This document shows positions 42,597 through 60,140 of a DNA stretch of 64,000 nucleotides, in pieces; the stretch's first letter is position 1, and each line of letters starts with the position of its first letter. The notes beneath the pieces were generated by a model. That model searched no databases, had not been told where the DNA came from, and worked only from the letters and a program-made list of their open reading frames with translations. The DNA comes from an uncultured SAR86 cluster bacterium (GTDB taxonomy: Bacteria > Pseudomonadota > Gammaproteobacteria > Magnimaribacterales > AG-339-G14): assembly GCA_902589965.1 (NCBI GenBank), contig CACIUX010000005.1, forward strand, positions 7,929 through 71,928, read 5' to 3'. The position numbers were made by a program, and so were the translations under genes.

Positions 42597-45500
42597 ATGA
42601 AATTTTTCCATCACCTCTTAATTGCATTCTTTTTATTTTCCGCAAACTTTTTCGCACAATCTGACAACGAAGATTATACGCTTGAGGAGATAATTGTAAC
42701 CGCTCAAAAAACAGAAAAATCACTTCAAGATGTTCCTATAGCTGTTTCCGCTTTATCAGCCGATGATTTGGCATTGAGACAAGCAGTGAGATTTACTGAT
42801 TTACAACTTAACGTTCCTAATCTCAGTTATTCAGAGACTAACTTTGGAGGTAGTTCCGTATCAATCAGAGGTATAGGTAGACTTGCTACAGGAATTTCAT
42901 TTGACCAATCAGTGACCACTCACATTAATGAATCTCCTTGGGGAGAAAATACCAATGTTGCAACTATGTTTGATATGGATAGAGTTGAAGTCTTGAGAGG
43001 TCCTCAAGGTACTCTTTTCGGAAGAGGAACAACAGCTGGATTAGTTAATTTGGTTACCAAAAGGCCATCCGTTGATACAGGTCTTGATGGCTATGCAGGT
43101 TTTACAATTGGTGAATACGATTTAAAAACGTTTGAAGGAGCAATAAATATTCCTTTAGATGAAAATTTTGCTGTAAGGGCCGCTTACACTCAAACAGAAA
43201 GAGATGGATTTACTGAGAACCTCTATGAACCATTGGGCGGTACTTTTGATGGTCGAGATCATTATGTGGGAAGAATTTCTCTAAGATATGATTCTGGAAA
43301 TACTGTAGTTGATTATATGTACCAAGAGCACGAGGAAGAAAGTACCAGAACACTTCGAACAAATTATGTCTGTACTCCCGATACTAATATTGCAAGAGGT
43401 TGCGCCTTAGGCGGCGAAGGAATCGGAATAGCTAATCCAGCTGCGACCTACAATGGAATCCTTGGAGCAGTTTTTCTAGAATCAGGGCCCTTGGGTGCAA
43501 ATACAGCAACTTACACAGCGTTTGGTCTTAATGATGTTCCGAGACCTGCAAACATGACTCTTAGGCAGACTCATAGTGATTTCGCTCCTATATACGATAG
43601 GCATTCTGGTACTCATCAGCTTAACATATCTCACGATTTGGAGGATGGAATTGTGTCATTAAATGTTATGTCACGAGAATCATCATCATACACAAGAATG
43701 GATACAACTTTGGCAGTTGAACCTTTGATTGGTGTAAAAATTTCTGATGATCCCCTTACTTATCTTGGAGGTTTAGTTTCGGTTGATATGCTTGATCACT
43801 GCGTTGGAGATCAATGCGGAAAAAAAGGTCCTACGCAAGTAGAAAGACTGAGCGGTCAATCTGGCAAGTATGTTTTACAGACTACTAACAGAAACTCATT
43901 CATTGACGGATCTAGTAATGAACAAGCAACTGAATATCTCGAACTTAAATACAGTTCTGATCTAGATGGTATTTTTAATTTCATAGTCGGTGTAAATCAT
44001 TATGGTCATTATGAAGATGATAGTTATCTGACAACTTCATCTCCTTTAACGCTTCTAGGAGATGCCCAATTTTTTGTTCCTACTACATTTGGTGATATTA
44101 ATGAGTATGAGTTAGAGGCCAGCGGTCTATTTGGAGAACTTTACTTTGATGTCAGAGATGATTTGAGAATTACTCTTGGTTTGCGATACGGAGAAGAGAA
44201 AAAAATTAACGATATCGTAACGACAAATTATGGACAAGCAAGAAATGTCGGCGCATTTGCTGGCGTGCCTTGGTTGTTGGTCGATGGAGATTTATATAAC
44301 TGTTTCGAGGGTATTGCAGGAGCTTTTGGTCAAGCACCAGACCTTGGCGTTATCGGTCAGATTTTATCTGGTCAATCATCAAACGGTTGTGGAGCAGGTG
44401 AGCAAGAAACCATTGATCTTTATCAAGTTTCAGCTCAAGTTAATGCTGCATCTACTGCTTTAGCAGGTGGTATTGCTGCAGCTGGCTTAATTACAGATCC
44501 TCAACAACAAGCTTTAGCAACTGGAACGGCTTATGCGACTTACTTTATGAGTGTTAAAGATTTGGTTCCTCCGCTCTATGATAGAAGCGAAAATTATAAT
44601 ATTCCTGGCTGGGAGTCTTATAAAAAGAATAAACTAGATTACACAACAACGGCTGGAAGATTAATCGTTGATTATACTTTCGGTGATGATTCTCTTTTGT
44701 ATGCTTCTTATTCCAGAGGAACTAAACCTGCAGGCATTAATCCTCCAATTAACCCAAGAATTTATGAAAAGGGTTTAATTCCTGCAAACACAGTAGAGGA
44801 AAAAGTTGATGCATTTGAATTGGGAATCAAGTCAATTTTGCTCAACGGTCAAATGAGACTGAATACTTCGATTTTTTACAACAAGTATACCGATATGCAA
44901 ATATCAAGGATTCTTGCTACTACAACTTTTAATTTCAATATTGACTCAGAAAATTTTGGGGCTGAAATAGAAATGGATTTCGTTCCTGCTGCAATTCCAA
45001 ATCTGAGGTTAGATTTTATGTTTGCCTACATAAACACAAAAATCCAAGATGACGAGCTTACAATTGATCCGTTCAACATTGCAGCTCAAGGTACGCCTTA
45101 TTTTGATGCCAGCAATACTATTTACAAATGTATTGATCTTTTTTATGAAGGTGAGGGTTGTGTTGCAAACACCTTTATTGCTGATAAAGATCTTGTCAAT
45201 TCAGTTCAAGCTGTCTTAGCCAGTTTGGATGCTTGGTTACCAGTTCCTGGAACAACTCAAGCAGACGGCCATCCAATTTATATGTCTAGGGTGGCATTAT
45301 CAGCTCTTGGAATACCAACTTCTACAGGCGTGAAGCAAAGTATTGATGGCAATCGTCTTCCTAATACGCCAGAAATGACAACTTCATTAGGACTTTCTTA
45401 CAATTTTGAAATTGGTAACGGCATCTCAATTGTTCCAAATATTTACTACTATTATCAAAGCGATATGTACGTAAATGAATTTAACAATGATTTATACGGT

Positions 45501-45707
45501 AAGGTTGATGCTTGGGATGAAATAAATATTGGTTTAACGGTAGGAGACGTTGAAAATCAATGGTATTTCAGATTTTTTTCAAGAAATGCTCTCAATGAGG
45601 ATAATATAACTTGGAAATATAACTCAACTGACGTGACCGGTAATTTCCAAAGTTATTTCTTAAGAGATCCAAGGGTAACTGGAATAGAGTATAGATATAA
45701 TTTTTAA
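42597..45707 (+). CDS. TonB-dependent receptor (1036 aa)
   Basis: LEEIIVTAQK TonB box, SLQDVPIAV, RVEVLRGPQGTLFGR, C-terminal YNF. Confidence 0.96.
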   Translation: MKFFHHLLIAFFLFSANFFAQSDNEDYTLEEIIVTAQKTEKSLQDVPIAVSALSADDLALRQAVRFTDLQLNVPNLSYSETNFGGSSVSIRGIGRLATGISFDQSVTTHINESPWGENTNVATMFDMDRVEVLRGPQGTLFGRGTTAGLVNLVTKRPSVDTGLDGYAGFTIGEYDLKTFEGAINIPLDENFAVRAAYTQTERDGFTENLYEPLGGTFDGRDHYVGRISLRYDSGNTVVDYMYQEHEEESTRTLRTNYVCTPDTNIARGCALGGEGIGIANPAATYNGILGAVFLESGPLGANTATYTAFGLNDVPRPANMTLRQTHSDFAPIYDRHSGTHQLNISHDLEDGIVSLNVMSRESSSYTRMDTTLAVEPLIGVKISDDPLTYLGGLVSVDMLDHCVGDQCGKKGPTQVERLSGQSGKYVLQTTNRNSFIDGSSNEQATEYLELKYSSDLDGIFNFIVGVNHYGHYEDDSYLTTSSPLTLLGDAQFFVPTTFGDINEYELEASGLFGELYFDVRDDLRITLGLRYGEEKKINDIVTTNYGQARNVGAFAGVPWLLVDGDLYNCFEGIAGAFGQAPDLGVIGQILSGQSSNGCGAGEQETIDLYQVSAQVNAASTALAGGIAAAGLITDPQQQALATGTAYATYFMSVKDLVPPLYDRSENYNIPGWESYKKNKLDYTTTAGRLIVDYTFGDDSLLYASYSRGTKPAGINPPINPRIYEKGLIPANTVEEKVDAFELGIKSILLNGQMRLNTSIFYNKYTDMQISRILATTTFNFNIDSENFGAEIEMDFVPAAIPNLRLDFMFAYINTKIQDDELTIDPFNIAAQGTPYFDASNTIYKCIDLFYEGEGCVANTFIADKDLVNSVQAVLASLDAWLPVPGTTQADGHPIYMSRVALSALGIPTSTGVKQSIDGNRLPNTPEMTTSLGLSYNFEIGNGISIVPNIYYYYQSDMYVNEFNNDLYGKVDAWDEINIGLTVGDVENQWYFRFFSRNALNEDNITWKYNSTDVTGNFQSYFLRDPRVTGIEYRYNF

Positions 45708-45895: not shown

Positions 45896-48800
45896 ATGAG
45901 TATAAAAAAATTATTATCGCCATTATTGATATTGGCACTCATTTTCACTGGATATTCGATAGCGCAAGACAATGCTCTTGAAGAAGTAACCGTAACATCG
46001 CAAAGACAAGAACAAAGTCTTCAAGACGTTCCTTTAGCTGTGACAGCTTTTAATGCAGATGATTTGCTTGAACAGCAAATTGAGGAAGCTTCGGATCTTC
46101 AACTTGTGGTTCCTGGATTGACTTTTGCACCCACTGCTTTTTCTGGCGGTGGTGGATTTGATATTCGTGGAATTACTAATTTAGCCGTTGCAGCTTCTGC
46201 AGATGCTGGAGTTGCAATCCACATGAATGACTTAGCATTAGGTTCAACAACTTTGCAGGATGGAACATTCTTTGACATGCAGAGAATAGAGGTTATCAGA
46301 GGACCAGCAGGAACCTTATTTGGAAGAAATTCAGTTGGTGGCGCCATCAACATGATTACTGCAAAAGGGGACACGTCTGGTTATTACGGTAATGCAAGTA
46401 TCGATATTGCTGACTATAACGGACTGAAAACAACCTCAACTTTTAATATTCCATTAGACGATAAAGTGGCTTTGAGACTTGCCACATCTACTCTTAAAAG
46501 AGACGGTTATATGGAAAACATTTACTCTGTTCAAAAAGATCAAGATGTTGATGGAAGAAATCAAGTAGCTTATCGAGCTACTTTAACTTTTGAGCCAACT
46601 GACAATACTACAATCCATATTATCCATAACGCAGAAATTGAAGATTCAACCAGAACATTAGGTGGTAACGTATACTGTAAAAGAGATACATCTTTTGTAA
46701 CGGGTTGTACTCGTACTTCTGAGCGAGCATTTGAGTTAACCCACCCTATGGGAACTTACGTTGAAAACTTGATGGTTGCTATGGGAGTATTGGATTTTAC
46801 TACAACAACTGATATGTCTGGTGCTCCTCAAGGATTCAGACAAGTAAATACTCGTGGTAATTCTCTCTATCAAGTTGATCAATACACTACGCAACTTCTC
46901 ATAGAGCACAGCGTTGATGATATTGATATTTCAATAGGTGCTCACTCAAAAGATAGAACTTTCATGAGAATGTCTGCTTATGCCTCTCCTGAAATGCAAA
47001 CTTTAAGATTTAAAAATACTCCTGCCACCCCTGGTGGTTTGATCAATATGTCAGGGTACGGTCCAGGATGTGATTTAGACGCAGGAACTCTTGGTGCTTA
47101 CGGTGGTTGTGTCATGGATACAATAAATTATCCAACAGGCGGAGATAGACCAGAATCAGACGTTGATACAAAAGTACTTGAATTAAAAGTGAGTTCTTCA
47201 TTCGATGGAAATGTAAACTTCCTAGCCGGTTACACTTACTATGATAATGCTTCCATTACCTTATACGATGTATATGCAAGTGGATTGGATGTCTTAGCTC
47301 AAGCACCGCCAGCATTATTGGCGGGTCCTGCTGCTGCTCTAGGCGCACAACTTTATCCAAGTTTATTCAGAACAAATGATAAAGGAACTATTGAATCGCA
47401 AGCAGTTTTTGGAGAACTTTATTATGAGCCGAGAGAAGACTTAAAACTTACTTTTGGTCTTAGATATAATGAAGATGAAAAAACAAGCTTAAGTAGAATT
47501 GCATTTGTTAACGTTTTAGGTTTTTCTAAAGGTCGAGCTACTGACTTAGGAGTAAATCTTCTGACAGAAGGAGCCATACCAACTGCTGCTGCTTTCGAAG
47601 CTTTTGCTTGTGGAAACTTTGAGCAAGGATTTTGTCCCCTTTTAGGAAGTGTTCCTGATTATGGAGAAGCTTATATCGCAACTACAGGTCTGGATCCGTA
47701 TATGGAATTTAGTGCCATGACCGGAAGATTTGTCGTTGATTATTTTGTCGATGAAAACTCGTTGATTTATGTAAATTTATCTAAAGGTTTCAAAGGCGGA
47801 GGTTTTAACCCTGCTCTTGATCCCTTAATTTTCCCTAACACACCTCAAATATTCCCAGCCTCTGATCTTATATCGCTTGAATTTGGGTTTAAAACAGAGT
47901 TCCCAGAACAAGGCGTTCGTCTGAACGGAGCTGTCTATGCATATGATGCTGAAAATTATCACATCACAAAAATTATGAATAAAACCTCAATTAATGAAGG
48001 TATTGATGTTGATATTATGGGTCTAGAATTAGAGTTGTTATACGCTCCTCCTTCAGTCCCAGGCCTTGCTCTGAATGCTTCTTTAGCAATGACCGAGTCA
48101 ACAATTGCTGATGGTGTTTCGGCGCTTGATCCAGTACAACCGGATGGAGCATTTTCAGGACATCCAGACAGCAAAAACTGGCATTTAATGAAAGATGAAC
48201 TTTCAACCATGTTTATTATGAGAAAAGATGCATTGCAAGCTGTTTATGGAGCTTGGTTGCAAGAAACTCTTACAGGTGGGGCAGCTCAAACTGGATTGGA
48301 TGCTATTGAAGTTCTTACGGCTGGTGCCACAACTACAGCTGATTTAATGGCGGCATTAATACCTGCTGAGTTCCACGGAGATAGAACTTACGGCCAACCA
48401 ACACCTGTCAGTTATTTGGTTCCTGCCTTAGGTTTAAGTCCTGCTGAGGGTCATTTACCTTCTCTAGGTGTTCAAGCCGGTATGAGAACCATGGCTCAAT
48501 TAATGGGTTTTGATCCTGCAGCTGTTGTTTCTGAAGGTCTCGAAACAGATATCTCAGGAAATTCATTAGTTCACCCTGACTCATCAGCAAACATAGGTAT
48601 TTCTTATACAGCTCAAGCAGGAAGTGTGAACGTAACAACAAGACTAGATGTAGCGTATCAAGGTGCAAGGTATGTACGTATATTTAATCTCCCAGAGGAT
48701 CAAATTGATTCTTGGTTAGAATCAAATTTACAAATTACTGTTACACCTGCAAATGATGACAGTTGGTATGTACAATTTTACGGTCAGAACATTACCGATG

Positions 48801-48910
48801 AACTTAACGTTACCGGCATTGGCCTTGGTGATGCTTCAGTAGGCCAAACTAGAGGAGTTACTGTTAGAGATCCTCAAGTCTTTGGAATTAGAGTTGGTTA
48901 CAATTTCTAA
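45896..48910 (+). CDS. TonB-dependent receptor (1004 aa)
   Basis: LEEVTVTSQRQEQSLQDVP, RIEVIRGPAGTLFGRN, GFKGGGFN, C-terminal GYNF. Confidence 0.96.
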   Translation: MSIKKLLSPLLILALIFTGYSIAQDNALEEVTVTSQRQEQSLQDVPLAVTAFNADDLLEQQIEEASDLQLVVPGLTFAPTAFSGGGGFDIRGITNLAVAASADAGVAIHMNDLALGSTTLQDGTFFDMQRIEVIRGPAGTLFGRNSVGGAINMITAKGDTSGYYGNASIDIADYNGLKTTSTFNIPLDDKVALRLATSTLKRDGYMENIYSVQKDQDVDGRNQVAYRATLTFEPTDNTTIHIIHNAEIEDSTRTLGGNVYCKRDTSFVTGCTRTSERAFELTHPMGTYVENLMVAMGVLDFTTTTDMSGAPQGFRQVNTRGNSLYQVDQYTTQLLIEHSVDDIDISIGAHSKDRTFMRMSAYASPEMQTLRFKNTPATPGGLINMSGYGPGCDLDAGTLGAYGGCVMDTINYPTGGDRPESDVDTKVLELKVSSSFDGNVNFLAGYTYYDNASITLYDVYASGLDVLAQAPPALLAGPAAALGAQLYPSLFRTNDKGTIESQAVFGELYYEPREDLKLTFGLRYNEDEKTSLSRIAFVNVLGFSKGRATDLGVNLLTEGAIPTAAAFEAFACGNFEQGFCPLLGSVPDYGEAYIATTGLDPYMEFSAMTGRFVVDYFVDENSLIYVNLSKGFKGGGFNPALDPLIFPNTPQIFPASDLISLEFGFKTEFPEQGVRLNGAVYAYDAENYHITKIMNKTSINEGIDVDIMGLELELLYAPPSVPGLALNASLAMTESTIADGVSALDPVQPDGAFSGHPDSKNWHLMKDELSTMFIMRKDALQAVYGAWLQETLTGGAAQTGLDAIEVLTAGATTTADLMAALIPAEFHGDRTYGQPTPVSYLVPALGLSPAEGHLPSLGVQAGMRTMAQLMGFDPAAVVSEGLETDISGNSLVHPDSSANIGISYTAQAGSVNVTTRLDVAYQGARYVRIFNLPEDQIDSWLESNLQITVTPANDDSWYVQFYGQNITDELNVTGIGLGDASVGQTRGVTVRDPQVFGIRVGYNF

Positions 48911-50734: not shown

Positions 50735-53700
50735 ATGCATAAATTTTCAATTAATTTAATACTTTTCTATTTATTTTTCTCTTCACCCTTCGCAATTGTC
50801 CAAGATTCTGATGGATTAGAAGAAATTATTGTAACTGCGCAAAGACAAGAACAAAGTCTGCAAGACGTTCCTTTAGCAGTATCTTCATTCTCTGGAGATG
50901 ATCTATTGGAGCAACAGATCGAAGGAATTAATGACATGCAATTGTTTGTTCCTGGACTTAGGTTTGGTGGAAATATTGGTGAAGGTGGAGGAGATATTGA
51001 AATAAGGGGAATGGTGAATGGAGCAGTATCAGGTACAGCAGATTCAGCAGTTGGAGTTCATATTAATGACTTAGCTGTGGGAATAACACCTCTTGATACT
51101 GGCCAGCTTTTTGATATGGAAAGAGTTGAGATAATCAGAGGTCCTGCAGGAACTTTATATGGAAGAAATGCTATTGGTGGATCATTGAATATGATTACGG
51201 CAAAAGCAGATCCAACTTCTTTTTCTGGGAAAGTTAGTGTTGATCTTGGAGATTATGGAAGATTTGGCACTACTTCAGTTATAAATATTCCTCTTGATGA
51301 CAATGCAGCCTTTAGATTTGCTTCAACAACTTTGAAGCAAGATGGTCTAGTAGATAACATTTATAGCAAAGGACTCGATTATAACTTGGATAACAGAAAT
51401 CAAATGGGATACAGAGCTACCCTAAGTTTCGAACCTTCTGAAAAAACTACAATTCATATTGTTCATCAAGCTCAGATTGAAGATTCAAAAAGAACGCTTA
51501 CTTCAGGAACTTGGTGTGACAGAGATCCTTCCGCAGTCTTTGGTTGCACAATGCAAGCACCTGAAAATCAAAAATTTGAGATTGCGCATCCCATGTCCAC
51601 GTTAGTTGAACAACTTCTCATAGCACAAGGAGTTTTAAACTACACTCCGATAACTAGTCTGGCTGGAGCTCCTCAAGAATTATGGACGATGAACGTCAGA
51701 AACGAACCTGTATATACCGTTGACGAATATATTACTCAATTCATCGTAGACCATGATATTAATGACGAACTATCCTTATCTGTTGCTGCGAGCAGAAAAG
51801 ATAGAAAGTTTTATAGGTTAGAGGCTTACGAATCTCCAGAGTTAGATACATTAAGATTTAACGATACTCCTGTAACTCCTGGCGGTATTGGAACTATGTC
51901 TGCAAGTATCGATTCAAATTGCTCAGTCGAAGGCTACACTGCTGGTTTTTATGGTGGATGCATTTTGGATACACTGAATTATCCTACAGGAGCATTTAAC
52001 TATAGTTCTCTGGCTGATACGGATGCAGTTGAAATGAAACTAGTTTCTAGTTTTGATGGACCTCATAATTTTCTATTCGGTATGAATTATTTTAAAAATT
52101 ATCAAGATACGGATACAGATGTTGTGGCTTCTGGTCTAGATGCATTAACTGTGGCTCCACCTGCAGCAATGATAGGTACTCAAGCAGCTAGTCTTGGAGC
52201 ACAACTTTACGCACCATTTTTTAGAACAGCCAATATCGATGTAATAGAATCAACCGCCGTATTTGGTGAATATTACTTTGATGTGCGTGACGACTTAAAA
52301 TTAACCGTTGGCATGAGATACACAGATGACTTTAAAGAAGCAGGTCCAAGTAATCCGTCATTTAATATATTAGGTTACGCCAAAGGTAATATCACAGATG
52401 CTGCAGCTTCAGCTTGGACTGGTGGATTAGTTCCATCTGCCGCAGCCTGGGAAGCTTTATTTTGTCCTATAGGCGCCACTTTTTGCCCAGTTCCAGAATC
52501 CGCTATTCCTGGCAACAAAGTTCCCGCACCAGGAGAAGCTTACAGAGCAGCAGGGCTAGAAACCACTAGAGAAACTTCAGAATTTACTGGAAGGATTGTT
52601 TTAGACTACTTTATAAATCAAGATTCAATGATGTTTGTTTCCTTTTCCACTGGATTCAAAGGCGGTGGGATTAATCCTGGGTTTGATCCTACAAGTTTTG
52701 CTGGCGTTCCAACTGGATTTCCAAATTCAGAAGTAAATAATCTTGAAATAGGTTTCAAAAATGAATTTCCTGCTCAGGGAGTAAGACTTAATGTTTCTGC
52801 TTACTATAGTGATATTGAAAATTACCATATCACACAAATTAAAAATAGAACCTCAGTAAACGAGGGTATTGATGTTGAAATCATGGGTGCCGAGGCTGAT
52901 TTGCTTTACATGCCACCTGAAGTCCCTGGTTTTTCCCTGAATGCTTCTCTCAGCTACACATCTTCTGAGATCAATGATGGAGAAGGCTCTATAGATATGG
53001 TTAATAGAGATTTGCAATTAACAGGAGGAGTAGGCTCAACTGATTGGCACACTGTCAAAGATCAAGTTTCAGAAACCTTTATTATCAGAAAAACTGCTTT
53101 GCAGGCTATGTGGACCAGTTATTTGCAAGAGATTGCAACCTCTGGTGCAGCAGTGACTCCTGCAGATGGCATATCTGCCTTAAATCCGACTCTTGACGGT
53201 TTAACCCTCGCAAGTTTGGTGTTTTTTAATCCTGTAGAACATCACGGTGACAGAACTTTTGGAGCACCAACTCCAGTAAGTTATTGGAATCCATTAGCTG
53301 GTCAAAACCCTGCTGATGGTCATCTACCCTCAGTACTAAATAGAGCTTCAGGTCTTCATCAAATTCTAGCTCAGCTACATGGATTTGATCTAGTTCCTGG
53401 TTCTGATATCAGTGAAGGTTTAGTGAGCGATGTTTCAGGTAATTCTTTATTTCATCCCGAACTGCAAGCAAATCTTGGTATAGGTTACTTACAAGATATT
53501 GGAAATCTAAAAATTAATTATCGTCTGGATTATTCATATCAGGGAGAAAGATATTTAAGGGTATTTAATCTTCCAAGTGACGTCTTAGAGGCTTGGGATG
53601 AGTTAGGCGCCCAAATTACTCTATCTAGTTCAGATGATTCTTGGTTTGTTCAATTTTATGGACAAAACATAACTGACAACAATAGCTATTATTATAGAGA

Positions 53701-53788
53701 ACTTCAAAGTACCGCTGTAGGAAACTACCAAAGGATAATGGCTAGAGAAAGGGCTAGATATGGAATAAGGCTTGGTTATAATTTTTAA
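50735..53788 (+). CDS. TonB-dependent receptor (1017 aa), paralog of 45896-48910
   Basis: LEEIIVTAQRQEQSLQDVP, RGPAGTLYGRN, many blocks shared with the previous TBDR, C-terminal GYNF. Confidence 0.96.
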   Translation: MHKFSINLILFYLFFSSPFAIVQDSDGLEEIIVTAQRQEQSLQDVPLAVSSFSGDDLLEQQIEGINDMQLFVPGLRFGGNIGEGGGDIEIRGMVNGAVSGTADSAVGVHINDLAVGITPLDTGQLFDMERVEIIRGPAGTLYGRNAIGGSLNMITAKADPTSFSGKVSVDLGDYGRFGTTSVINIPLDDNAAFRFASTTLKQDGLVDNIYSKGLDYNLDNRNQMGYRATLSFEPSEKTTIHIVHQAQIEDSKRTLTSGTWCDRDPSAVFGCTMQAPENQKFEIAHPMSTLVEQLLIAQGVLNYTPITSLAGAPQELWTMNVRNEPVYTVDEYITQFIVDHDINDELSLSVAASRKDRKFYRLEAYESPELDTLRFNDTPVTPGGIGTMSASIDSNCSVEGYTAGFYGGCILDTLNYPTGAFNYSSLADTDAVEMKLVSSFDGPHNFLFGMNYFKNYQDTDTDVVASGLDALTVAPPAAMIGTQAASLGAQLYAPFFRTANIDVIESTAVFGEYYFDVRDDLKLTVGMRYTDDFKEAGPSNPSFNILGYAKGNITDAAASAWTGGLVPSAAAWEALFCPIGATFCPVPESAIPGNKVPAPGEAYRAAGLETTRETSEFTGRIVLDYFINQDSMMFVSFSTGFKGGGINPGFDPTSFAGVPTGFPNSEVNNLEIGFKNEFPAQGVRLNVSAYYSDIENYHITQIKNRTSVNEGIDVEIMGAEADLLYMPPEVPGFSLNASLSYTSSEINDGEGSIDMVNRDLQLTGGVGSTDWHTVKDQVSETFIIRKTALQAMWTSYLQEIATSGAAVTPADGISALNPTLDGLTLASLVFFNPVEHHGDRTFGAPTPVSYWNPLAGQNPADGHLPSVLNRASGLHQILAQLHGFDLVPGSDISEGLVSDVSGNSLFHPELQANLGIGYLQDIGNLKINYRLDYSYQGERYLRVFNLPSDVLEAWDELGAQITLSSSDDSWFVQFYGQNITDNNSYYYRELQSTAVGNYQRIMARERARYGIRLGYNF

Positions 53789-53875: not shown

Positions 53876-54889
53876 ATGATTAAACACATCAACAATATTG
53901 CTGGAATTTTAATTCTTCTTAATATTTTTGATCAGATTTTGTCGTCTAGCAAAATTATTCCTGAAAATATCTATTTTGATATATTTGTTATAGCTTCTTA
54001 TCTTTTTTTTGGTGCTGAATTTATTACAAGAATTATCATTGAAAGAAGATTCTCTTTCCTGTTAGTTTTCGATTTTATCGTTTTAGCAAATTATATTTTC
54101 TTTGGATTTTACGATTTAAGAATTTTAAGAATCTTTAGGGCTTATTCAATTTATAGCAATCATAAAATGTTACTTCCAACTAATACATTGTTGAGAACGG
54201 TGTATAACCAAAGGTTGGCGTTACTTGGTTCTCAAATAATGGTTTTTTCCGTTTTACTTATTTTTTCGACTTTAATTCACTTCATTGAAAGAGATATTAA
54301 TCCAGAGTATTTTGGTTCTATTCTCAATTCAATGTGGTTTGGAATTGCTACGCTAACCACAGTTGGTTATGGAGATGTAACTCCATCATCCCCATTAGGC
54401 CAAGTTCTTACTTCTTTAACTATGTTTCTAGGTATCGGAATGTTTGCTTTGCCTGCTGCAATCTTAGCCTCGGCTTATTATGAGGAAATCCAAAAAAGAA
54501 ACTTTCTCATAACAATGGAAACAATTTCTAGTATCCCATTATTCTCGATGTTGCCCATAGGGGCTTTAAGTAAAATTAACGATAAGTTAGTTGCTGAAAT
54601 TTACCCGGCTAAAAGAAAAATTATAGAAAAAGGTGATGAGGCAGATTGCATGTACATTATTGAGTTTGGATCTGTTCAAGTAGAAATAGAATCTCCTGTG
54701 ACTTTGGGACAGGGTGATTATTTTGGTGAAAAAGGAATTCTTTCTAAAGAACTTCGTAATGCATCTATAAGCTCAATAGAGGAAGTTAAATTACTTTCCC
54801 TGTCAAAAGACGATTTAGAAGAACTAATGGGAGAATATCCTCATCTTTTTGAAGAGCTTGAAAAAGTTAGTTTAGACAGAAAAGGTTAA
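53876..54889 (+). CDS. Cyclic-nucleotide-gated K+ channel (MloK1/SthK-like)
   Basis: Reduced S1-S4 with LRILRIFR, K+ filter TTVGYGD, cNMP domain with FGE...RNA. Confidence 0.93.
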   Translation: MIKHINNIAGILILLNIFDQILSSSKIIPENIYFDIFVIASYLFFGAEFITRIIIERRFSFLLVFDFIVLANYIFFGFYDLRILRIFRAYSIYSNHKMLLPTNTLLRTVYNQRLALLGSQIMVFSVLLIFSTLIHFIERDINPEYFGSILNSMWFGIATLTTVGYGDVTPSSPLGQVLTSLTMFLGIGMFALPAAILASAYYEEIQKRNFLITMETISSIPLFSMLPIGALSKINDKLVAEIYPAKRKIIEKGDEADCMYIIEFGSVQVEIESPVTLGQGDYFGEKGILSKELRNASISSIEEVKLLSLSKDDLEELMGEYPHLFEELEKVSLDRKG

Positions 54890-55638
54890 TTAAAAGAATA
54901 AGAAAACTTAGTACTAAGACCTTGATCATCTTCAACGGCATTAGTTATTGGATCCGAATCATATGCGATGTCATATTGAAGGCTGATACTAAATTTTTTA
55001 TTTACCAGAAAGTTAAAAGCCATAAGAAAACTTGCCTTGTAGTCACTAAAATCAGTGACTCCTGGTTGGTAATAAATCGTAGTATTAAAGTTAATATTTT
55101 CAGCAACTGCAAAATTATCGTGGAAATAAGCGGAAAGCCTTGTTGTGTTTGTTACAAAGTCGTCTAAATCAGTTTCTTCTTCATATATCACTCCAGCTCC
55201 AAATCTCATTTGATCATCTATAATCATTCTAAGACCAGTCCCAAATAAATTTCTTTCTCTAAAAAGCCTAAATGGATTTTTCGCTGACTGAATAAAGAAT
55301 TCTGTATTGTACTGATTGTAAGTTTCGAAAACTGATCTTATATGAATGAGTTGAGAAATATCCGTGACGTTTTGATTTATTTTCCTTTCAGATTTTCTCA
55401 AAATCATGAAGTTTTCAACGTCATCAAGGTTATAGTCAAACCTTAAATCAAAAGAATAGAAATCTCTGTCTCTGTTACCTCTGGAAGCATTTAAAGAAAA
55501 TCCAAGGCCAGCAAAAAATCCTTCCTTACCCTCATTTCTTAACTCTTCAATATTCACTATAGTCTGAGAAATAGCAAATGAGGGCAAGAGTAATGAAATA
55601 AAGAAGAATTTATTTAGTTGTTGCAACATACGCTCCAT
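54886..55638 (-). CDS. DUF481-like outer-membrane beta-barrel
   Basis: Signal peptide, IVNIE.LR N-terminus, GN motif, YYQP, alternating beta pattern, terminal YSF. Confidence 0.8.
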   Translation of the reverse strand: MERMLQQLNKFFFISLLLPSFAISQTIVNIEELRNEGKEGFFAGLGFSLNASRGNRDRDFYSFDLRFDYNLDDVENFMILRKSERKINQNVTDISQLIHIRSVFETYNQYNTEFFIQSAKNPFRLFRERNLFGTGLRMIIDDQMRFGAGVIYEEETDLDDFVTNTTRLSAYFHDNFAVAENINFNTTIYYQPGVTDFSDYKASFLMAFNFLVNKKFSISLQYDIAYDSDPITNAVEDDQGLSTKFSYSFN

Positions 55639-57793
55639 TCCAATTCGGATCAGTTAAATTAAGTTTCATATCCTTAATCCTGTCTTTAAAAATAGCGTAG
55701 TATAAATCAAACTCCACAACTTGTTCTTCCCATTTTTTAATAAAGTTTAATGCTAGATCCCATCGTTGGTTTCTATAATTCTCTAGAAATTTATTATGAT
55801 CATTTTGAAATTCAATTAATTCTTCATCATCTAATGAGAATTTATCAAAAGAAGTATAAATTTTAACCGGCTCAGTTTTCCCTTTAACTTGAATCAAGTC
55901 TAGTTCAAAAAGATTAGATTTTGACTTGAGGGTATTCACAGTTTCTTGTCCAAGAATTCTTTGAAAACCATAAGTTCCTGATTGACCTTCTAATCTTGAC
56001 GCCAAATTAACTGGATCTCCTAAGACGGTATAATCAAATCTTTTTTCTGATCCCATATTCCCAACAATACATTCACCAGTATTAATACCAATTCCGATTT
56101 TAAGTTCCATTCCTTTTTCTTTTTGGAATTCAATATTAAAGTTTTCTAACGCCTTTTCCATATCAAAAGATGCTTTTAGAGCTAAATCCGTATGATTTTC
56201 TTGATCTGTAGGTGCATTCCAGAATGCCATGATGCAATCACCCATATATTTATCAATTGTTCCTTCATTATCCAAAATTTCATTAGACAAAACTGTAAGA
56301 AGTTTATTTATCAGTTCAGTTAATTCTTCTGGATTAGATTTGTAACTTTCTGATATAGCTGTGAACCCTCGTATGTCAGAAAAAAGAAAAGTCATAGTTT
56401 TCTTCTCTCCTCCCAATTTAAGTGATTCACTTGATTCCGCAAGTCTCGAAACCATTTCTGGAGCAAGATATTGAGAAAAAGCTGTTCTAACTTTACTACG
56501 TTCCAACTCAGTAAAAAGAAAATTAAAAAATGTGATTATCAAGTAACTCAATAAGCATATTATTAATGGAGAAATTGGATCTATTAAAAAATCTAATTGA
56601 TTGAAACCATAGAAAGAACCATAGAGACTACTTAAATTTGCTACTAAGAATGTAATTAATCCCCCGATAGGTCCAAAATATTGAATGACCAAGCAAATCA
56701 AGATGGAAAAAAGTAAACCAAATAAAAATTCTGCTCCTTCCATCCAATCTGGTCTTACTAAAAAATCTCCATTTATAATTTGTTGAATGCCTTGAGCTAT
56801 GATTGTTACGCCAGGTATATCTCGCTCTAAAGAGGTATTTCTTATGTCGAGCAGTCCAGACGCGCTAGTTCCTATAAGAACAATTTTTCCAGCAAAGAAA
56901 TCTTTATCAAAAGAATTATTTATGACTTTAGCCGCAGGAATGATATTCAAGTTTTCCTTATAAGTAGAATATAACCAAAGGTAACCATTTGAATTGGTTG
57001 GAATAATTACGTTTCCTAATTTTATGTTATTAACTCCAGTACTCTCACCAAACGCTAACTCTCCTGATGCATTTGATGACTTGATTTGATAAGTACTTGC
57101 TCCGATAGCAACCCTAAGGGTCTCTAGCATCAAGGAAGGTACTATCTGTCCATTCACTACTTCAAATGTGGGGAGGCTTCTAACAATACTTGAATCACCC
57201 CCAATGCTCATCGACCCTACGCCCGCTGCAGAATCTACTAGAGCGGGTAAGTTGTTTTGCATTCCTGTGTAATTAGGAAGAAATTCTTTTGGTGAATCTC
57301 CCTGAATTATTAGACCGTATTTAGGTTTTACTTCTAAGGTTCTTAATTTATTATTTGGCGCACTTCCTAAGACAACAGTGGAGTGTGACTCCATAGATTC
57401 AGCAAATATTTTGTCATTTGGCTTTATCTTTTTTAACTCTCTAATTAGTTCAGTATTTGTTGAATATTGTTCAGTTAGAACATCACTTCCGGTTCTATCT
57501 CTTTCTGCAAAAACGATATCAAATGATGTAGTTAAAGCTCGCTCTGTTTTACTCACTAATTGAGAAAGTAGATCTCTTGACCAAGGCCATTGACCTAAAT
57601 TATTGAGAGACTCATCATCAATATCAATTATTACAACTGGATCATCTTCTAAAGGTTCTCTTGGACTTATTTGTTGTAGAGTATCAAAAGCAAATAATCT
57701 TAAATCATTAAAAATATTTAATGGATTTGTCAGTGGAATTAGACCAATTAAAATGGCTAAAGGGAGAAGTATTTTTTTTTGAATGTTCTTCAT
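55610..57793 (-). CDS. CHASE2-domain class III adenylate cyclase
   Basis: IDIDDESL..LGQWPWSR (CHASE2), 3 TM, FSDIRGFT, DKYMGDCIMAFW, DYTVLGDPVNLASRLEG (K and T ATP-specifying residues). Confidence 0.95.
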   Translation of the reverse strand: MKNIQKKILLPLAILIGLIPLTNPLNIFNDLRLFAFDTLQQISPREPLEDDPVVIIDIDDESLNNLGQWPWSRDLLSQLVSKTERALTTSFDIVFAERDRTGSDVLTEQYSTNTELIRELKKIKPNDKIFAESMESHSTVVLGSAPNNKLRTLEVKPKYGLIIQGDSPKEFLPNYTGMQNNLPALVDSAAGVGSMSIGGDSSIVRSLPTFEVVNGQIVPSLMLETLRVAIGASTYQIKSSNASGELAFGESTGVNNIKLGNVIIPTNSNGYLWLYSTYKENLNIIPAAKVINNSFDKDFFAGKIVLIGTSASGLLDIRNTSLERDIPGVTIIAQGIQQIINGDFLVRPDWMEGAEFLFGLLFSILICLVIQYFGPIGGLITFLVANLSSLYGSFYGFNQLDFLIDPISPLIICLLSYLIITFFNFLFTELERSKVRTAFSQYLAPEMVSRLAESSESLKLGGEKKTMTFLFSDIRGFTAISESYKSNPEELTELINKLLTVLSNEILDNEGTIDKYMGDCIMAFWNAPTDQENHTDLALKASFDMEKALENFNIEFQKEKGMELKIGIGINTGECIVGNMGSEKRFDYTVLGDPVNLASRLEGQSGTYGFQRILGQETVNTLKSKSNLFELDLIQVKGKTEPVKIYTSFDKFSLDDEELIEFQNDHNKFLENYRNQRWDLALNFIKKWEEQVVEFDLYYAIFKDRIKDMKLNLTDPNWNGAYVATTK

Positions 57794-57830: not shown

Positions 57831-59153
57831 ATGTTTGTCAGATATATTTTATTACTATTTATCTTTAGTTTTAGTATTTTTGTTTTAGCGCAAAACGTAC
57901 CTCCGACTATATCGGATCCTGAGCAATTAGAAACGATTAGAAAAGAAAGGCAAGCTATTTTTAATGAATTGATAGAGGATCCAACTAATCAGGGAAATTT
58001 ATTTAAATATGCCAATCTATCAATTATTTTAGGAGATTTAGAAGCGGCTATTGGGGTTTTTGAACAAATGCTTATTTATGATCCTACTTTGGCAAGAATT
58101 AGGCTAGAACTTGGAGTACTTTACTTTAGGCTAGAAGCTTATGCTCCAGCAAAATTATATCTTGAGAGCGTTAAAGACTACGACCCTCCTGAAGAAGTGA
58201 TTACGAAGGTTGAATCTTTTTTAGCTGCCATTGAAGAGCAAGAAAAGCCTGTAACGGTAAATCAACTAATGACTTTTGGTTTTGCCAGTTCTTCTAACGC
58301 AAATGCTGGTATAGATGCCGACATTATCGAGATAGCAGGTTTTCCTCTTGAGGTATCTCCAGATTCAAAACCTCAATCGGATTCAAAATTTTCTGTCAAT
58401 TACAATTTGTCTTTAACTCAGAATTTGAATAATCCCCGTGGTGATGCAATTAATTATTTCCTGGCAGTTGCTACCACTTATCAATCTAGGTTTACGCAAT
58501 TTGACCAAAGAAGTTTCGTATTTGGTTTAAATAGTCGTTTAGATGTAGAAGAGGGCAGATTTGGATTATTGAAAAATCCATCGGTCACACCAAGCTTCAC
58601 AAGAATTCAAGTTTACTTATCTGGAGAGCCTCTGCTTGAATCTAATGCTTTCAGCGTAAGTCATTCTGGATCCTTAACAAATGGTTCTGTTTTTGAATAC
58701 GGTTTTAACGTAGATAAAAGGAATTTTATAGGCTTAGATGCAAAAAGCGGTTACAGATACGGAACTTTTGTGAATAACACTTTTAATTTACCAAATAATA
58801 ACTCTAGTTGGACTATGAATATTTTCTCTGATAAATATGAAGCCAACCAAAAATTTGAATCCTTTAGACAATGGGGTTTTGGTTTTAATTACAGAATGCC
58901 TCTTCCAGATGCATGGGTTATGGCTGCTAATTATGATTTCTCTACTAAAAATTACCTTGCACCAAACGGACCACTTGGAACAAGAAAAGATATTAACGAA
59001 TCATCAGATTTAACCTTTTCAAGACTTTATATAAATTGTTTATCTATGAATATTTTTATTAAACCTTTTGATAATAGAAGCAGCATTGATATCTTCTCCA
59101 GAAGTAACACCGATGTAGGTGTAAATCTTTCTTATCTTTGCTTAAATAACTAA
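57831..59153 (+). CDS. TPR + outer-membrane beta-barrel protein (DUF560/Slam-like)
   Basis: Signal peptide, TPR pair (AAIGVFEQML..DP...RIRLELGVLYFRL..Y), SSNANAG strand start, beta-rich C-terminus. Confidence 0.75.
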   Translation: MFVRYILLLFIFSFSIFVLAQNVPPTISDPEQLETIRKERQAIFNELIEDPTNQGNLFKYANLSIILGDLEAAIGVFEQMLIYDPTLARIRLELGVLYFRLEAYAPAKLYLESVKDYDPPEEVITKVESFLAAIEEQEKPVTVNQLMTFGFASSSNANAGIDADIIEIAGFPLEVSPDSKPQSDSKFSVNYNLSLTQNLNNPRGDAINYFLAVATTYQSRFTQFDQRSFVFGLNSRLDVEEGRFGLLKNPSVTPSFTRIQVYLSGEPLLESNAFSVSHSGSLTNGSVFEYGFNVDKRNFIGLDAKSGYRYGTFVNNTFNLPNNNSSWTMNIFSDKYEANQKFESFRQWGFGFNYRMPLPDAWVMAANYDFSTKNYLAPNGPLGTRKDINESSDLTFSRLYINCLSMNIFIKPFDNRSSIDIFSRSNTDVGVNLSYLCLNN

Positions 59154-59185
59154 CCTTAAATTTTACTTGAGTATATAATCCGCAA

Positions 59186-59911
59186 ATGAATCAGATAGTC
59201 CAATTTTTTCTAAAAATAAGAAACAGTAGTTTTTTTAATGGAATTGTAATTTTTGTAATCATTGGCTCTGCTATTTATGCAGGAGTTAGCTCTTATGACC
59301 TTGCGGAAGAATACGTTGGACTGCTGAATTTTCTTGATACCGCCATAACAGTTTTTTTCCTAGTAGAGATTATTATAAGAATAGTCGCAGAAAGATCACT
59401 GATTAAATTTTTTAAAGGTGGTTGGAACGTCTTTGATTTCATCATCGTTACGGTCAGTTTAATTCCAATCACGGGAGGAGAGACAGCATTCGTTGCAAGA
59501 TTACTCAGAATTGTCAGGGTATTAAGAATTATCACCGTAGTGCCTGCATTGAAGAAAATTGTCGATGCGTTGTTTGAAACGCTTCCAAGAGTTGGTTTTG
59601 TGGCTCTTCTAATGTTCATTTTCATATATATATGGGCTGCTATAGGAACTTTAGTTTTTGGAACAACAGATCCAGAACATTGGGGTAATATTGGTCTTGC
59701 TATGCTTACCCTTGCACAAGTTGCTACATACGATGACTGGGCTGCAGTTATGAAAGATATAATTGAAGTTTTTCCTTGGGTATGGATTTACTTTATTAGT
59801 TTCATTCTTCTTAATGCCGTAATCATGTTGAATATGGTCATTGGTATCATTGTTGATGTTATGTCTAAGAAATCTAGCAGCGGCCAATTAAGTGCAGATG
59901 AGAATCAATAA
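59186..59911 (+). CDS. BacNav-family voltage-gated cation channel with TYDDW filter
   Basis: GWNVFDFIIV (S3), RLLRIVRVLR (S4), pore VATYDDWAAV, S6 LNMVIGIIVD.M. Confidence 0.93.
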   Translation: MNQIVQFFLKIRNSSFFNGIVIFVIIGSAIYAGVSSYDLAEEYVGLLNFLDTAITVFFLVEIIIRIVAERSLIKFFKGGWNVFDFIIVTVSLIPITGGETAFVARLLRIVRVLRIITVVPALKKIVDALFETLPRVGFVALLMFIFIYIWAAIGTLVFGTTDPEHWGNIGLAMLTLAQVATYDDWAAVMKDIIEVFPWVWIYFISFILLNAVIMLNMVIGIIVDVMSKKSSSGQLSADENQ

Positions 59912-60140
59912 TTTTCTGATCCTTTTTCTATTTTTATCTTTATCTTCATGCACCTATCAAAAGGTAATTAAGAACTCTATGTATGATTTAGATGAGTTTG
60001 ATGCATGTTATTTAGATCATAAATCCGTCCTAGACTCCGATAAACAGAAGTATCTAAACATGCTCATAGAGTTAAGAAATTATAATTGTTCTCGTTATTA
60101 TGAACTTTTTATGAGAGGGACAATTATTCAGGGCAATTAA
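59898..60140 (+). CDS. Small hypothetical lipoprotein
   Basis: MRINNFLILFLFLSLSSC lipobox; overlaps the channel stop; two further Cys. Confidence 0.6.
   Translation: MRINNFLILFLFLSLSSCTYQKVIKNSMYDLDEFDACYLDHKSVLDSDKQKYLNMLIELRNYNCSRYYELFMRGTIIQGN

What the first reader, a model, noticed from the sequence alone, without database searches (positions are those of the whole stretch)
59720..59749. Natural TxDDW selectivity filter matching engineered Ca2+-selective BacNav mutants
Seen: pore sequence VATYDDWAAV (ACA TAC GAT GAC TGG at 59726-59740). Known: Na-selective BacNavs have TLESW; changing NaChBac or NavAb to LDDWAD / TLDDWSD makes them Ca2+-selective; the described native CavMr uses TLEGW. 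This channel has both core Asp residues, Tyr in place of Leu, lacks the outer third Asp and has almost no C-terminal coiled coil. Inference: candidate native prokaryotic voltage-gated Ca2+ channel of a different type.
Basis: partly seen in the sequence, partly recalled or inferred. Interest (0 to 1): 0.75.

Follow-up and report, generated by a model that had tools for sequence, protein, structure and literature searches.

The report
Natural double-aspartate bacterial voltage-gated channel
A small-genome marine bacterium carries an intact voltage-gated-type ion channel gene whose pore naturally has the two aspartates used to engineer calcium selectivity, so it likely lets calcium in, and it often sits beside a cAMP-making sensor and a predicted cAMP-gated potassium channel, though no current has been measured.

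Summary
Observation confirmed. Window 59186-59911 encodes an intact 241-aa BacNav-type channel with four S4 arginines, filter T181-Y-D-D-W-A-A and a 15-residue tail. YDDW is in 121 of 121 top homologues; T[YF]DDW is in 42 of 154 genomes of the order. The closest solved structure is NavRh, which is also short-tailed. Calcium selectivity is only partly supported. Asp4 raised PCa/PNa to 35 in NaChBac, but in the ancestor-like backbone, towards which this clade leans, Asp4 gave a Ca2+-blocked Na+ channel (NavPp), and Asp3 alone gave non-selectivity (NsvBa). My odds: Ca2+-preferring 0.5, Ca2+-blocked 0.25, non-selective 0.2. A second clade (TFDDWS, 120 of 120) appears to have reached the same filter independently (AU p=1e-5), also without the third Asp. 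The gene often ends a cassette: CHASE2 cyclase, MloK1-like K+ channel (the only cNMP-binding domain found in 32 of 32 genomes holding both), Slam-like protein and giant cadherin-repeat protein. 28 of 33 cyclase genomes hold the channel, but 14 of 42 channel genomes lack the cyclase. The scan noted both filter and cassette before, on another genome (e1-3625319, e1-3625316). New variant of a known kind.

The parts
59186..59911 (+). 241-aa single-domain 6TM voltage-gated-type cation channel (BacNav superfamily)
   Evidence: PF00520 144 bits; best prokaryotic PDB hit NavRh 4DXW, E 4.6e-61; model pLDDT 68.9, Foldseek rank 1 NavRh, 42% identity
59726..59746 (+). Selectivity filter T181-Y182-D183-D184-W185-A186-A187
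   Evidence: position 7 never acidic in 163 distinct DD-clade sequences
59498..59527 (+). S4 voltage sensor with R105, R108, R111, R114
   Evidence: all four invariant in 27 aligned sequences
59816..59818 (+). A211, at the S6 site equivalent to NavAb T206; predicted to slow inactivation
   Evidence: A147/S13/G3, never Thr, in 163 sequences; T206A/S/G slow or abolish early inactivation in NavAb (PMC6363407); equivalence inferred from the distance to the conserved S6 Asn (NavAb numbering recalled)
59864..59908 (+). 15-residue polar C-terminal tail, too short for the usual coiled coil
   Evidence: tail 7-26 aa in DD clade vs 33-59 (TFEDWTD/TLEDWTD) and 32-61 (TLESWSM)
59174..59179 (+). TATAAT 6 nt before the ATG: predicted own, leaderless promoter
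   Evidence: same place in 12 of 12 distinct genus upstream sequences; exact TATAAT within 45 nt in 23 of 35 distinct upstream sequences; not reported by the two-hexamer scan
57831..59153 (+). [quoted passage not shown]
   Evidence: TPR_19; ESM Atlas neighbours at 0.99 include SlipAM/DUF560 clusters
55610..57793 (-). 727-aa CHASE2-domain class III nucleotide cyclase, divergent from the previous gene
   Evidence: PF05226 and PF00211; only PF00211 match in G000
54886..55638 (-). 250-aa DUF481 outer-membrane protein
   Evidence: PF04338
53876..54889 (+). 337-aa MloK1-like K+ channel with TVGYG filter and cNMP-binding domain
   Evidence: PF07885 and PF00027; MloK1 E 4.2e-44; only PF00027 match in G000

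Best explanation
The gene encodes an intact BacNav-type channel with a conserved T-Y-D-D-W filter that likely assembles as a homotetramer, likely opens on depolarisation and likely passes Ca2+ in preference to Na+ (PCa/PNa above 1, probably moderate rather than CavAb-like). Shown: 6TM fold, four S4 arginines, two rings of aspartate at filter positions 3 and 4, no third acidic ring, no Arg beside the filter, small residue at the T206 site, short tail. Inferred: D183 and D184 form the central and outer Ca2+ sites as D177 and D178 do in CavAb; Y182 contributes only its backbone carbonyl; A211 slows inactivation; opening would give a Ca2+ pulse used as a signal. At PCa/PNa 8-35, Ca2+ would carry about 40-75% of inward current in seawater.
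For: Asp at position 4 alone raised NaChBac PCa/PNa from 0.15 to 35, and LDDWAD gave 133 (PMC2229573); about 100-fold in NavAb (PMC10120453). The DD filter conferred Ca2+ preference in a third backbone, NsvBa, about 30 (PMC4225499). CavAb sites 1 and 2 are D178 and D177 (PMC7583514). An aromatic at position 2 (L176F) did not cause Ca2+ block in NavAb (PMC10349818). Even in CavMr, G4D left PCa/PNa 7.7. The DD clade lacks the pore Arg that 46 of 46 TFEDWTD/TLEDWTD and 19 of 19 TLESWSM sequences carry. A second clade has TFDDW in 120 of 120, and joining the two clades is rejected (p-AU 1.2e-5), so the filter was likely selected twice. Current fractions: (seawater concentrations recalled).
Against: In the ancestor-like backbone, Asp4 gives Na+ preference with Ca2+ block (NavPp 0.308), and the TLEDWSD and TLEDWAD mutants of NavPp stayed blocked. 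My trees put this clade with NavRh-like and TFEDWTD channels (SH-aLRT 97, also with filter columns removed). Asp3 alone makes NsvBa non-selective, and LDDWADG in NsvBa still passes K+ and Rb+. The nearest solved relative's filter was Na+-selective when grafted into NaChBac. All engineered DD channels I could read about have the third Asp, which is missing here. No recording exists for this clade in the papers searched.
Confidence: 0.5

Rival explanations
1. A Na+-conducting channel partly blocked by seawater Ca2+ and Mg2+, like NavPp: the DD rings bind divalents too tightly to pass them without an outer knock-off site.
For: NavPp data and its mutants; tree position near the TFEDWTD group and a shared P2 spacing of 12 residues; no acidic residue at position 7; NavRh was crystallised with Ca2+ in or above the filter (PMC4692491); PMC10120453 allows either outcome for an Asp at position 4.
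Against: Differs from NavPp at positions 2, 3, 6 and 7, and has Gln, not Arg, at T-3 (compared with the TFEDWTD/TLEDWTD group; NavPp itself was not in hand). Grouping with NavAb-like channels is not rejected (p-AU 0.167).
Confidence: 0.25
2. A non-selective voltage-gated cation channel (Na+, K+, Ca2+ all pass), like NsvBa or diatom EukCatA, serving to dissipate potential or balance ions.
For: Asp at position 3 lowers Na+ selectivity in NsvBa and NaChBac; OsEukCatA1 with Asp3 passes Na+ and Ca2+; Gly at position 6 in 35 of 163 sequences, as in NsvBa; MscS and an SLC13 transporter are persistent neighbours.
Against: Those channels have Ser or Ala at position 4; adding Asp4 shifted every canonical backbone tested towards Ca2+.
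Confidence: 0.2
3. The protein is not gated by voltage in the usual way (for example pH-gated or partner-dependent), so heterologous selectivity would not describe its role.
For: S1 lacks the Asn and Glu seen in TLESWSM-type relatives; NavRh and two TFEDWTD-like AnclNavs gave no current when expressed.
Against: Four invariant S4 arginines plus invariant F57/F58, E61 and D84.
Confidence: 0.05

Closest known systems
NavRh (PDB 4DXW, alphaproteobacterium HIMB114)
   Same: Best prokaryotic sequence and fold match (E 4.6e-61; 42% identity); gap-free pore alignment; Gln at T-3; short tail.
   Different: Filter TLSSWET uses a Glu at position 6 and was Na+-selective when grafted; here Asp3-Asp4 and no acid at 6 or 7.
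CavAb (TLDDWSD) and CaChBac (LDDWAD), engineered Ca2+-selective mutants
   Same: Asp at filter positions 3 and 4.
   Different: Natural; Tyr2; no third Asp; no P2 Arg; P2 one residue shorter than NavAb-like relatives (12 vs 13 residues); no coiled coil.
AnclNav group: NavPp (TLEDWTD), CavMr (TLEGWVD), TFEDWTD homologues (PMC7041947)
   Same: Next-closest relatives in genome searches have TFEDWTD (42-52% identity); Asp4 shared with NavPp; same side of the tree.
   Different: Asp3 instead of Glu3, no Asp7, no Gly4, Gln not Arg at T-3, short tail; a separate clade (SH-aLRT 99-100).
NsvBa (TLDSWGS, Bacillus alcalophilus; PMC4225499)
   Same: Natural Asp at position 3.
   Different: Ser at position 4; non-selective; Bacillus group.
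CatSper1
   Same: Asp at both positions 3 and 4, per PMC10120453.
   Different: Eukaryotic heterotetramer subunit; not compared by sequence here.
CHASE2 adenylate cyclase / FecR-domain / TPR / phosphodiesterase cluster (PMC9239204)
   Same: CHASE2 cyclase, TPR protein and (in relatives) a FecR-domain protein cluster together.
   Different: Here flanked by an MloK1-like K+ channel and the TYDDW channel; the FecR protein is 2000-2650 aa with cadherin repeats; no CRP found in 5 of 5 genomes; phosphodiesterase not searched.

Membership tests
[quoted passage not shown] | Six-TM Ion_trans fold with P1-filter-P2 pore | tested here: met
   PF00520 144 bits; helical model, Foldseek TM 0.70 to NavRh (model confidence only 68.9)
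BacNav superfamily | S4 with four arginines every third residue | tested here: met
   R105, R108, R111, R114 invariant in 27 of 27
BacNav superfamily | Homotetramer | not tested
   No complex prediction run; inferred from family
BacNav superfamily | Voltage-dependent cation current | not testable with these tools
   Needs electrophysiology
Canonical Na+-selective BacNav (NavAb-like, NaChBac) | TLESW filter | tested here: not met
   TYDDW
Canonical Na+-selective BacNav (NavAb-like, NaChBac) | Long C-terminal coiled-coil tail and P2-helix Arg | tested here: not met
   Tail 7-26 aa; no conserved Arg at filter position 10 or 11
AnclNav (Shimomura 2020) | Phylogenetic placement outside NavAb-like and Bacillus groups | tested here: inconclusive
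   Groups with TFEDWTD and NavRh-like at SH-aLRT 97, but the alternative is not rejected (p-AU 0.167); no named references or Bacillus sequences in the tree
AnclNav (Shimomura 2020) | Filter with Glu3 and Asp7 (NavPp, CavMr) | tested here: not met
   Asp3; position 7 A122/N25/M15/T1
CavMr-type native Cav | Gly at filter position 4 | tested here: not met
   Asp184
CavAb/CaChBac-type filter | Asp at positions 3 and 4 | tested here: met
   121 of 121 top homologues
CavAb/CaChBac-type filter | Asp at position 7 | tested here: not met
   0 of 163
CavAb/CaChBac-type filter | PCa/PNa above 100 | not testable with these tools
   Needs reversal-potential measurement
CHASE2 cyclase / FecR / TPR cluster | CHASE2 cyclase next to a TPR protein | tested here: met
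   55610-57793 and 57831-59153
CHASE2 cyclase / FecR / TPR cluster | Adjacent FecR-domain protein | tested here: inconclusive
   Present between TPR gene and channel in 5 of 16 relative loci fetched (FecR score 22.9, below cut-off 24); in this genome the homologue is at the start of contig C8, not adjacent
CHASE2 cyclase / FecR / TPR cluster | cAMP phosphodiesterase in the cluster | not tested
   Not searched

The most novel reading that the evidence does not exclude
This is a native bacterial voltage-gated Ca2+ channel that evolved the CavAb double-aspartate solution (as did a second, independent clade), and it is the output of a purely electrical sensing circuit in a CRP-less, apparently flagellum-less ocean bacterium. 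A Slam-exported cadherin-repeat surface protein and a CHASE2 receptor cyclase make cAMP; cAMP opens the MloK1-like K+ channel, its only detected receptor; the membrane depolarises towards the K+ equilibrium; the TYDDW channel opens and admits Ca2+.
Probability: 0.2. Interest if true: 0.85.

Novelty: new variant of a known kind. Interest (0 to 1): 0.58.

Why it matters
Only one native prokaryotic voltage-gated Ca2+ channel (CavMr) is described in the papers I found, and it works through a glycine, not added aspartates. The textbook structural model of Ca2+ selectivity (CavAb) is an engineered protein. Two independent natural clades with T-[YF]-D-D-W and no third Asp give a direct test of whether that mechanism exists in nature and how far it depends on the backbone. 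A 241-aa, tail-less channel predicted to inactivate slowly would also be a compact structural model or Ca2+-influx tool. If the cassette link is functional, it would supply a physiological trigger for a bacterial voltage-gated channel in a cell with no detected flagellin.

Tried and rejected
Sequencing error: rejected. Missing coiled coil as a special feature: rejected, shared with NavRh-like relatives, and NavAb lacking 40 C-terminal residues still conducts. Common origin with the alphaproteobacterial TFDDWS clade: rejected (34% identity). Sister group (NavRh-like or TFEDWTD): unresolved, p-AU 0.52 and 0.60. Obligate membership of the cyclase cassette: not supported (14 of 42 lack the cyclase). 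Phage carriage: none of 107 candidate stretches in viral contigs confirmed. Plasmid records gave only hits under 60% identity. Expression: RNA-run contigs cover the gene, but also 25-27 of 30 bins of a 20-kb stretch, so transcription is not shown. The two-hexamer promoter scan found fewer sites than shuffles (8 vs 12.1) and not the TATAAT before the gene. The wide profile search of cluster representatives never left the queue, so the range of DD filters beyond my samples is unsurveyed. Tang 2014 (CavAb) and Zhang 2012 (NavRh) are not held; I used secondary passages. The sequence files of Shimomura 2020 could not be read. No tetramer prediction was run: it would pass by likeness to solved channels and cannot tell selectivity.

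Full report
1. Observation. Bases 59720-59749 encode VATYDDWAAV, with ACA TAC GAT GAC TGG at 59726-59740, in ORF 59186-59911, 241 aa. The protein matches PF00520 at 144 bits. The motif aligns without gaps to the filter of NavRh. YDDW is in 121 of 121 proteins examined (the query and the 120 best of 2992 homologues, chosen by E-value; one has Pro for Thr). The Asp codons vary only synonymously in the 37 loci printed, and an independent contig matches 59709-59883 exactly.

2. Anatomy. S4 has four invariant arginines (27 of 27 aligned). The best prokaryotic PDB hit by sequence (E 4.6e-61; NaChBac 3.6e-46) and by fold (42% identity, TM 0.70; model pLDDT 68.9) is NavRh. Across 163 distinct DD-clade sequences (grouped by the motif itself): position 2 is Y161/F2; position 7 is never acidic; T-3 is always Gln; no Arg is conserved in the P2 helix; the S6 site equivalent to NavAb T206 is Ala, Ser or Gly; the tail is 7-26 residues. 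In the same call, 46 of 46 TFEDWTD/TLEDWTD sequences have Arg at T-3 and 19 of 19 TLESWSM sequences have Arg at position 11, so this pore lacks the usual counter-charge. T206A, S and G slow or abolish early inactivation in NavAb, and tail truncation removes late inactivation but speeds the early phase (PMC6363407, passages); slow inactivation here is an inference.

3. Distribution. The genome is 1.12 Mb, 86% complete. Holders are marine metagenomes and related records are labelled Gammaproteobacteria. With rhodopsin in 5 of 5 and flagellin in 0 of 5 genomes tested, I infer a SAR86-type lineage; that name is recalled and comes from no call. The channel is in 15 of 15 genomes of the genus. Of 154 order genomes at least 80% complete, 50 match; 42 have T[YF]DDW (all read) and 8 have other filters. 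In 400 genomes drawn from the phylum, no hit exceeded 53% identity.

4. Phylogeny. A 103-row quick tree (53 near-duplicate or partial rows dropped) and a 65-row tree without the filter columns both give a DD clade (SH-aLRT 100 and 99) on one side with NavRh-like and TFEDWTD channels (97 in the filter-free tree), away from TLESWSM channels. This is not forced: DD plus NavAb-like is 25 log units worse but not rejected (p-AU 0.167), and the sister is unresolved. Groups were named after seeing the tree, and no named reference proteins were in it. One NavAb-like sequence has TFDDWSG; its 120 best homologues all have TFDDW with no acid at position 7, and joining it to this clade is rejected (p-AU 1.2e-5). 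T-[YF]-D-D-W without a third Asp therefore probably arose at least twice. An unchecked scan note (e1-2663146) reports a further TGDDWSN case.

5. What the filter predicts. For Ca2+ entry: NaChBac LEDWAS PCa/PNa 35 and LDDWAD 133, against 0.15 for wild type; LDDWAS does not occur in that paper (PMC2229573, passages). TLEDWSM raises the ratio about 100-fold in NavAb (PMC10120453, passages). LDDWADG in NsvBa gives about 30 but passes monovalents (PMC4225499, passages). D177 and D178 form CavAb sites 2 and 1 (PMC7583514, passages). L176F causes no Ca2+ block (PMC10349818, passages). A filter charge of -8 allowed Ca2+ influx in NaChBac (PMC7764494, passages). Against: NavPp TLEDWTD has PCa/PNa 0.308 with Ca2+ block, its TLEDWAD mutant has no inward current in divalents, CavMr-G4D falls from over 200 to 7.7, and two related AnclNavs gave no current (PMC7041947, section 8 and passages). 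Asp3 alone is non-selective in NsvBa. The backbone here leans to the side where Asp4 was least favourable. I put Ca2+-preferring at 0.5 (CavAb-like selectivity above 100 at about 0.15 within that), Ca2+-blocked Na+ channel at 0.25, non-selective at 0.2. By the GHK limit with recalled seawater values, Ca2+ would carry 3% of inward current at 0.3, 40% at 7.7 and 75% at 35.

6. Neighbourhood. Upstream lie a TPR/barrel protein resembling Slam (lead), a divergent CHASE2 cyclase, a DUF481 protein and an MloK1-like K+ channel. In 5 of 16 relative loci fetched, from two other families, the same genes appear in the same order with a 2000-2300-aa FecR/cadherin-repeat protein between the TPR gene and the channel; 6 more have the giant gene directly upstream without the rest in view. 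Among 154 genomes, 28 of 33 with the cyclase, 27 of 33 with the K+ channel and 26 of 27 with the giant protein hold the DD channel, and none of the 8 genomes with other filters has any of them. Channel and cyclase are within 16 kb in 15 of 28; 11 are on different contigs and 2 are 154-168 kb apart. By genus, 6 of 10 DD genera and 0 of 11 others have the cyclase (Fisher p 0.004; overstated, as kin are not independent). In 32 of 32 genomes with both cyclase and K+ channel, the K+ channel is the only PF00027 match, and no CRP HTH or class I cyclase was found in 5 of 5. None of the TFEDWTD/TLEDWTD loci of 6 kb or more (17) has these neighbours. Against coupling: 14 of 42 DD genomes lack the cyclase (one is a contig break); in G511, G518, G519 and G520 the channel follows MscS directly with the module absent, and G059 has the flanks of G056 without it. 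The gene also has its own TATAAT 6 nt before the ATG in 12 of 12 genus sequences. The link is real but optional. I had found the cassette before seeing scan note e1-3625316; its remark that the channel persists without the module prompted, which agree. The cyclase/FecR/TPR core is known (PMC9239204, passages; PMC5498481, passages).

7. Mechanism. Shown: gene, fold, filter, conservation, linkage. Inferred: tetramer, depolarisation gating, Ca2+ binding by D183/D184, slow inactivation. Speculative: cAMP opens the K+ channel, pulling a strongly negative resting potential towards the K+ equilibrium and so opening this channel.

8. Novelty. TYDDW has no occurrence in the 40 listed of 70 papers; a paper holding it would have ranked among the first. 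Searches (listings only) showed no description of this clade or of the two-channel cassette; one search was uninformative. PMC8677417, PMC4436565, PMC4692491 and PMC6509283 were read as passages. The scan itself noted the same filter on another genome (e1-3625319).

9. Verdict. Observation confirmed, interpretation partly supported. A new filter variant within the BacNav superfamily, widespread in an ocean lineage, apparently convergent and directly testable. Interest 0.58.

Noticed in passing
L128 (P0122) and P0123-P0241: A second natural clade, in alphaproteobacteria (Rhabdaerophilaceae, Beijerinckiaceae by source names), with TFDDW in 120 of 120 in a NavAb-like backbone; position 7 is A, G, N, S or T, never acidic.
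   Followed up: partly
L075-L077, L114-L118: Eight genomes of the same order carry a different single-domain channel instead: NavRh-like TLSSW/TMSSW/TVSGW (6) or TLEGWPD with the CavMr-type Gly (2). Each of the 50 positive genomes gave one match.
   Followed up: partly
L154, L156, L158, L159, L164, L166-L168; G000:C8:3-4034: Giant 2000-2650-aa protein: FecR-like N-terminus, acidic linker, 7-8 cadherin repeats in the two scanned most fully, TbpB-like C-terminal barrel (lead); directly upstream of the channel in many relatives, tandemly duplicated in L168 and fragmented in L155/L157.
   Followed up: partly
window 53876-57793: CHASE2 cyclase and MloK1-like K+ channel co-occur in 32 of 33 cyclase genomes, where the K+ channel holds the only PF00027 match; no CRP HTH or class I cyclase in 5 of 5 genomes tested.
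   Followed up: yes
window 59892-60140: 82-aa ORF overlapping the channel's last 20 bases, kept in the genus loci, with a hydrophobic N-terminus followed by Cys (lipoprotein-like by eye), no Pfam match.
   Followed up: no
P0003: Looks chimeric: N-terminal part like P0021, C-terminal part identical to the window's protein from the filter on; recombination or an assembly chimera.
   Followed up: no
window 42597-45707, 45896-48910, 50735-53788: Three large paralogous ORFs that look like TonB-dependent receptors by eye (not scanned), around a carboxylesterase-like gene, upstream of the K+ channel.
   Followed up: no
L040-L043: Helicobacter genomes carry short (about 232 aa) channels with TGESWS/TAESWS filters and about 16-residue tails.
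   Followed up: no
G000:C1:100179-101096; G000:C11:17671-18312: One Na+/Ca2+-exchanger-family gene (a possible Ca2+ exit route, but common: 11 of 14 control genomes) and one rhodopsin gene.
   Followed up: no
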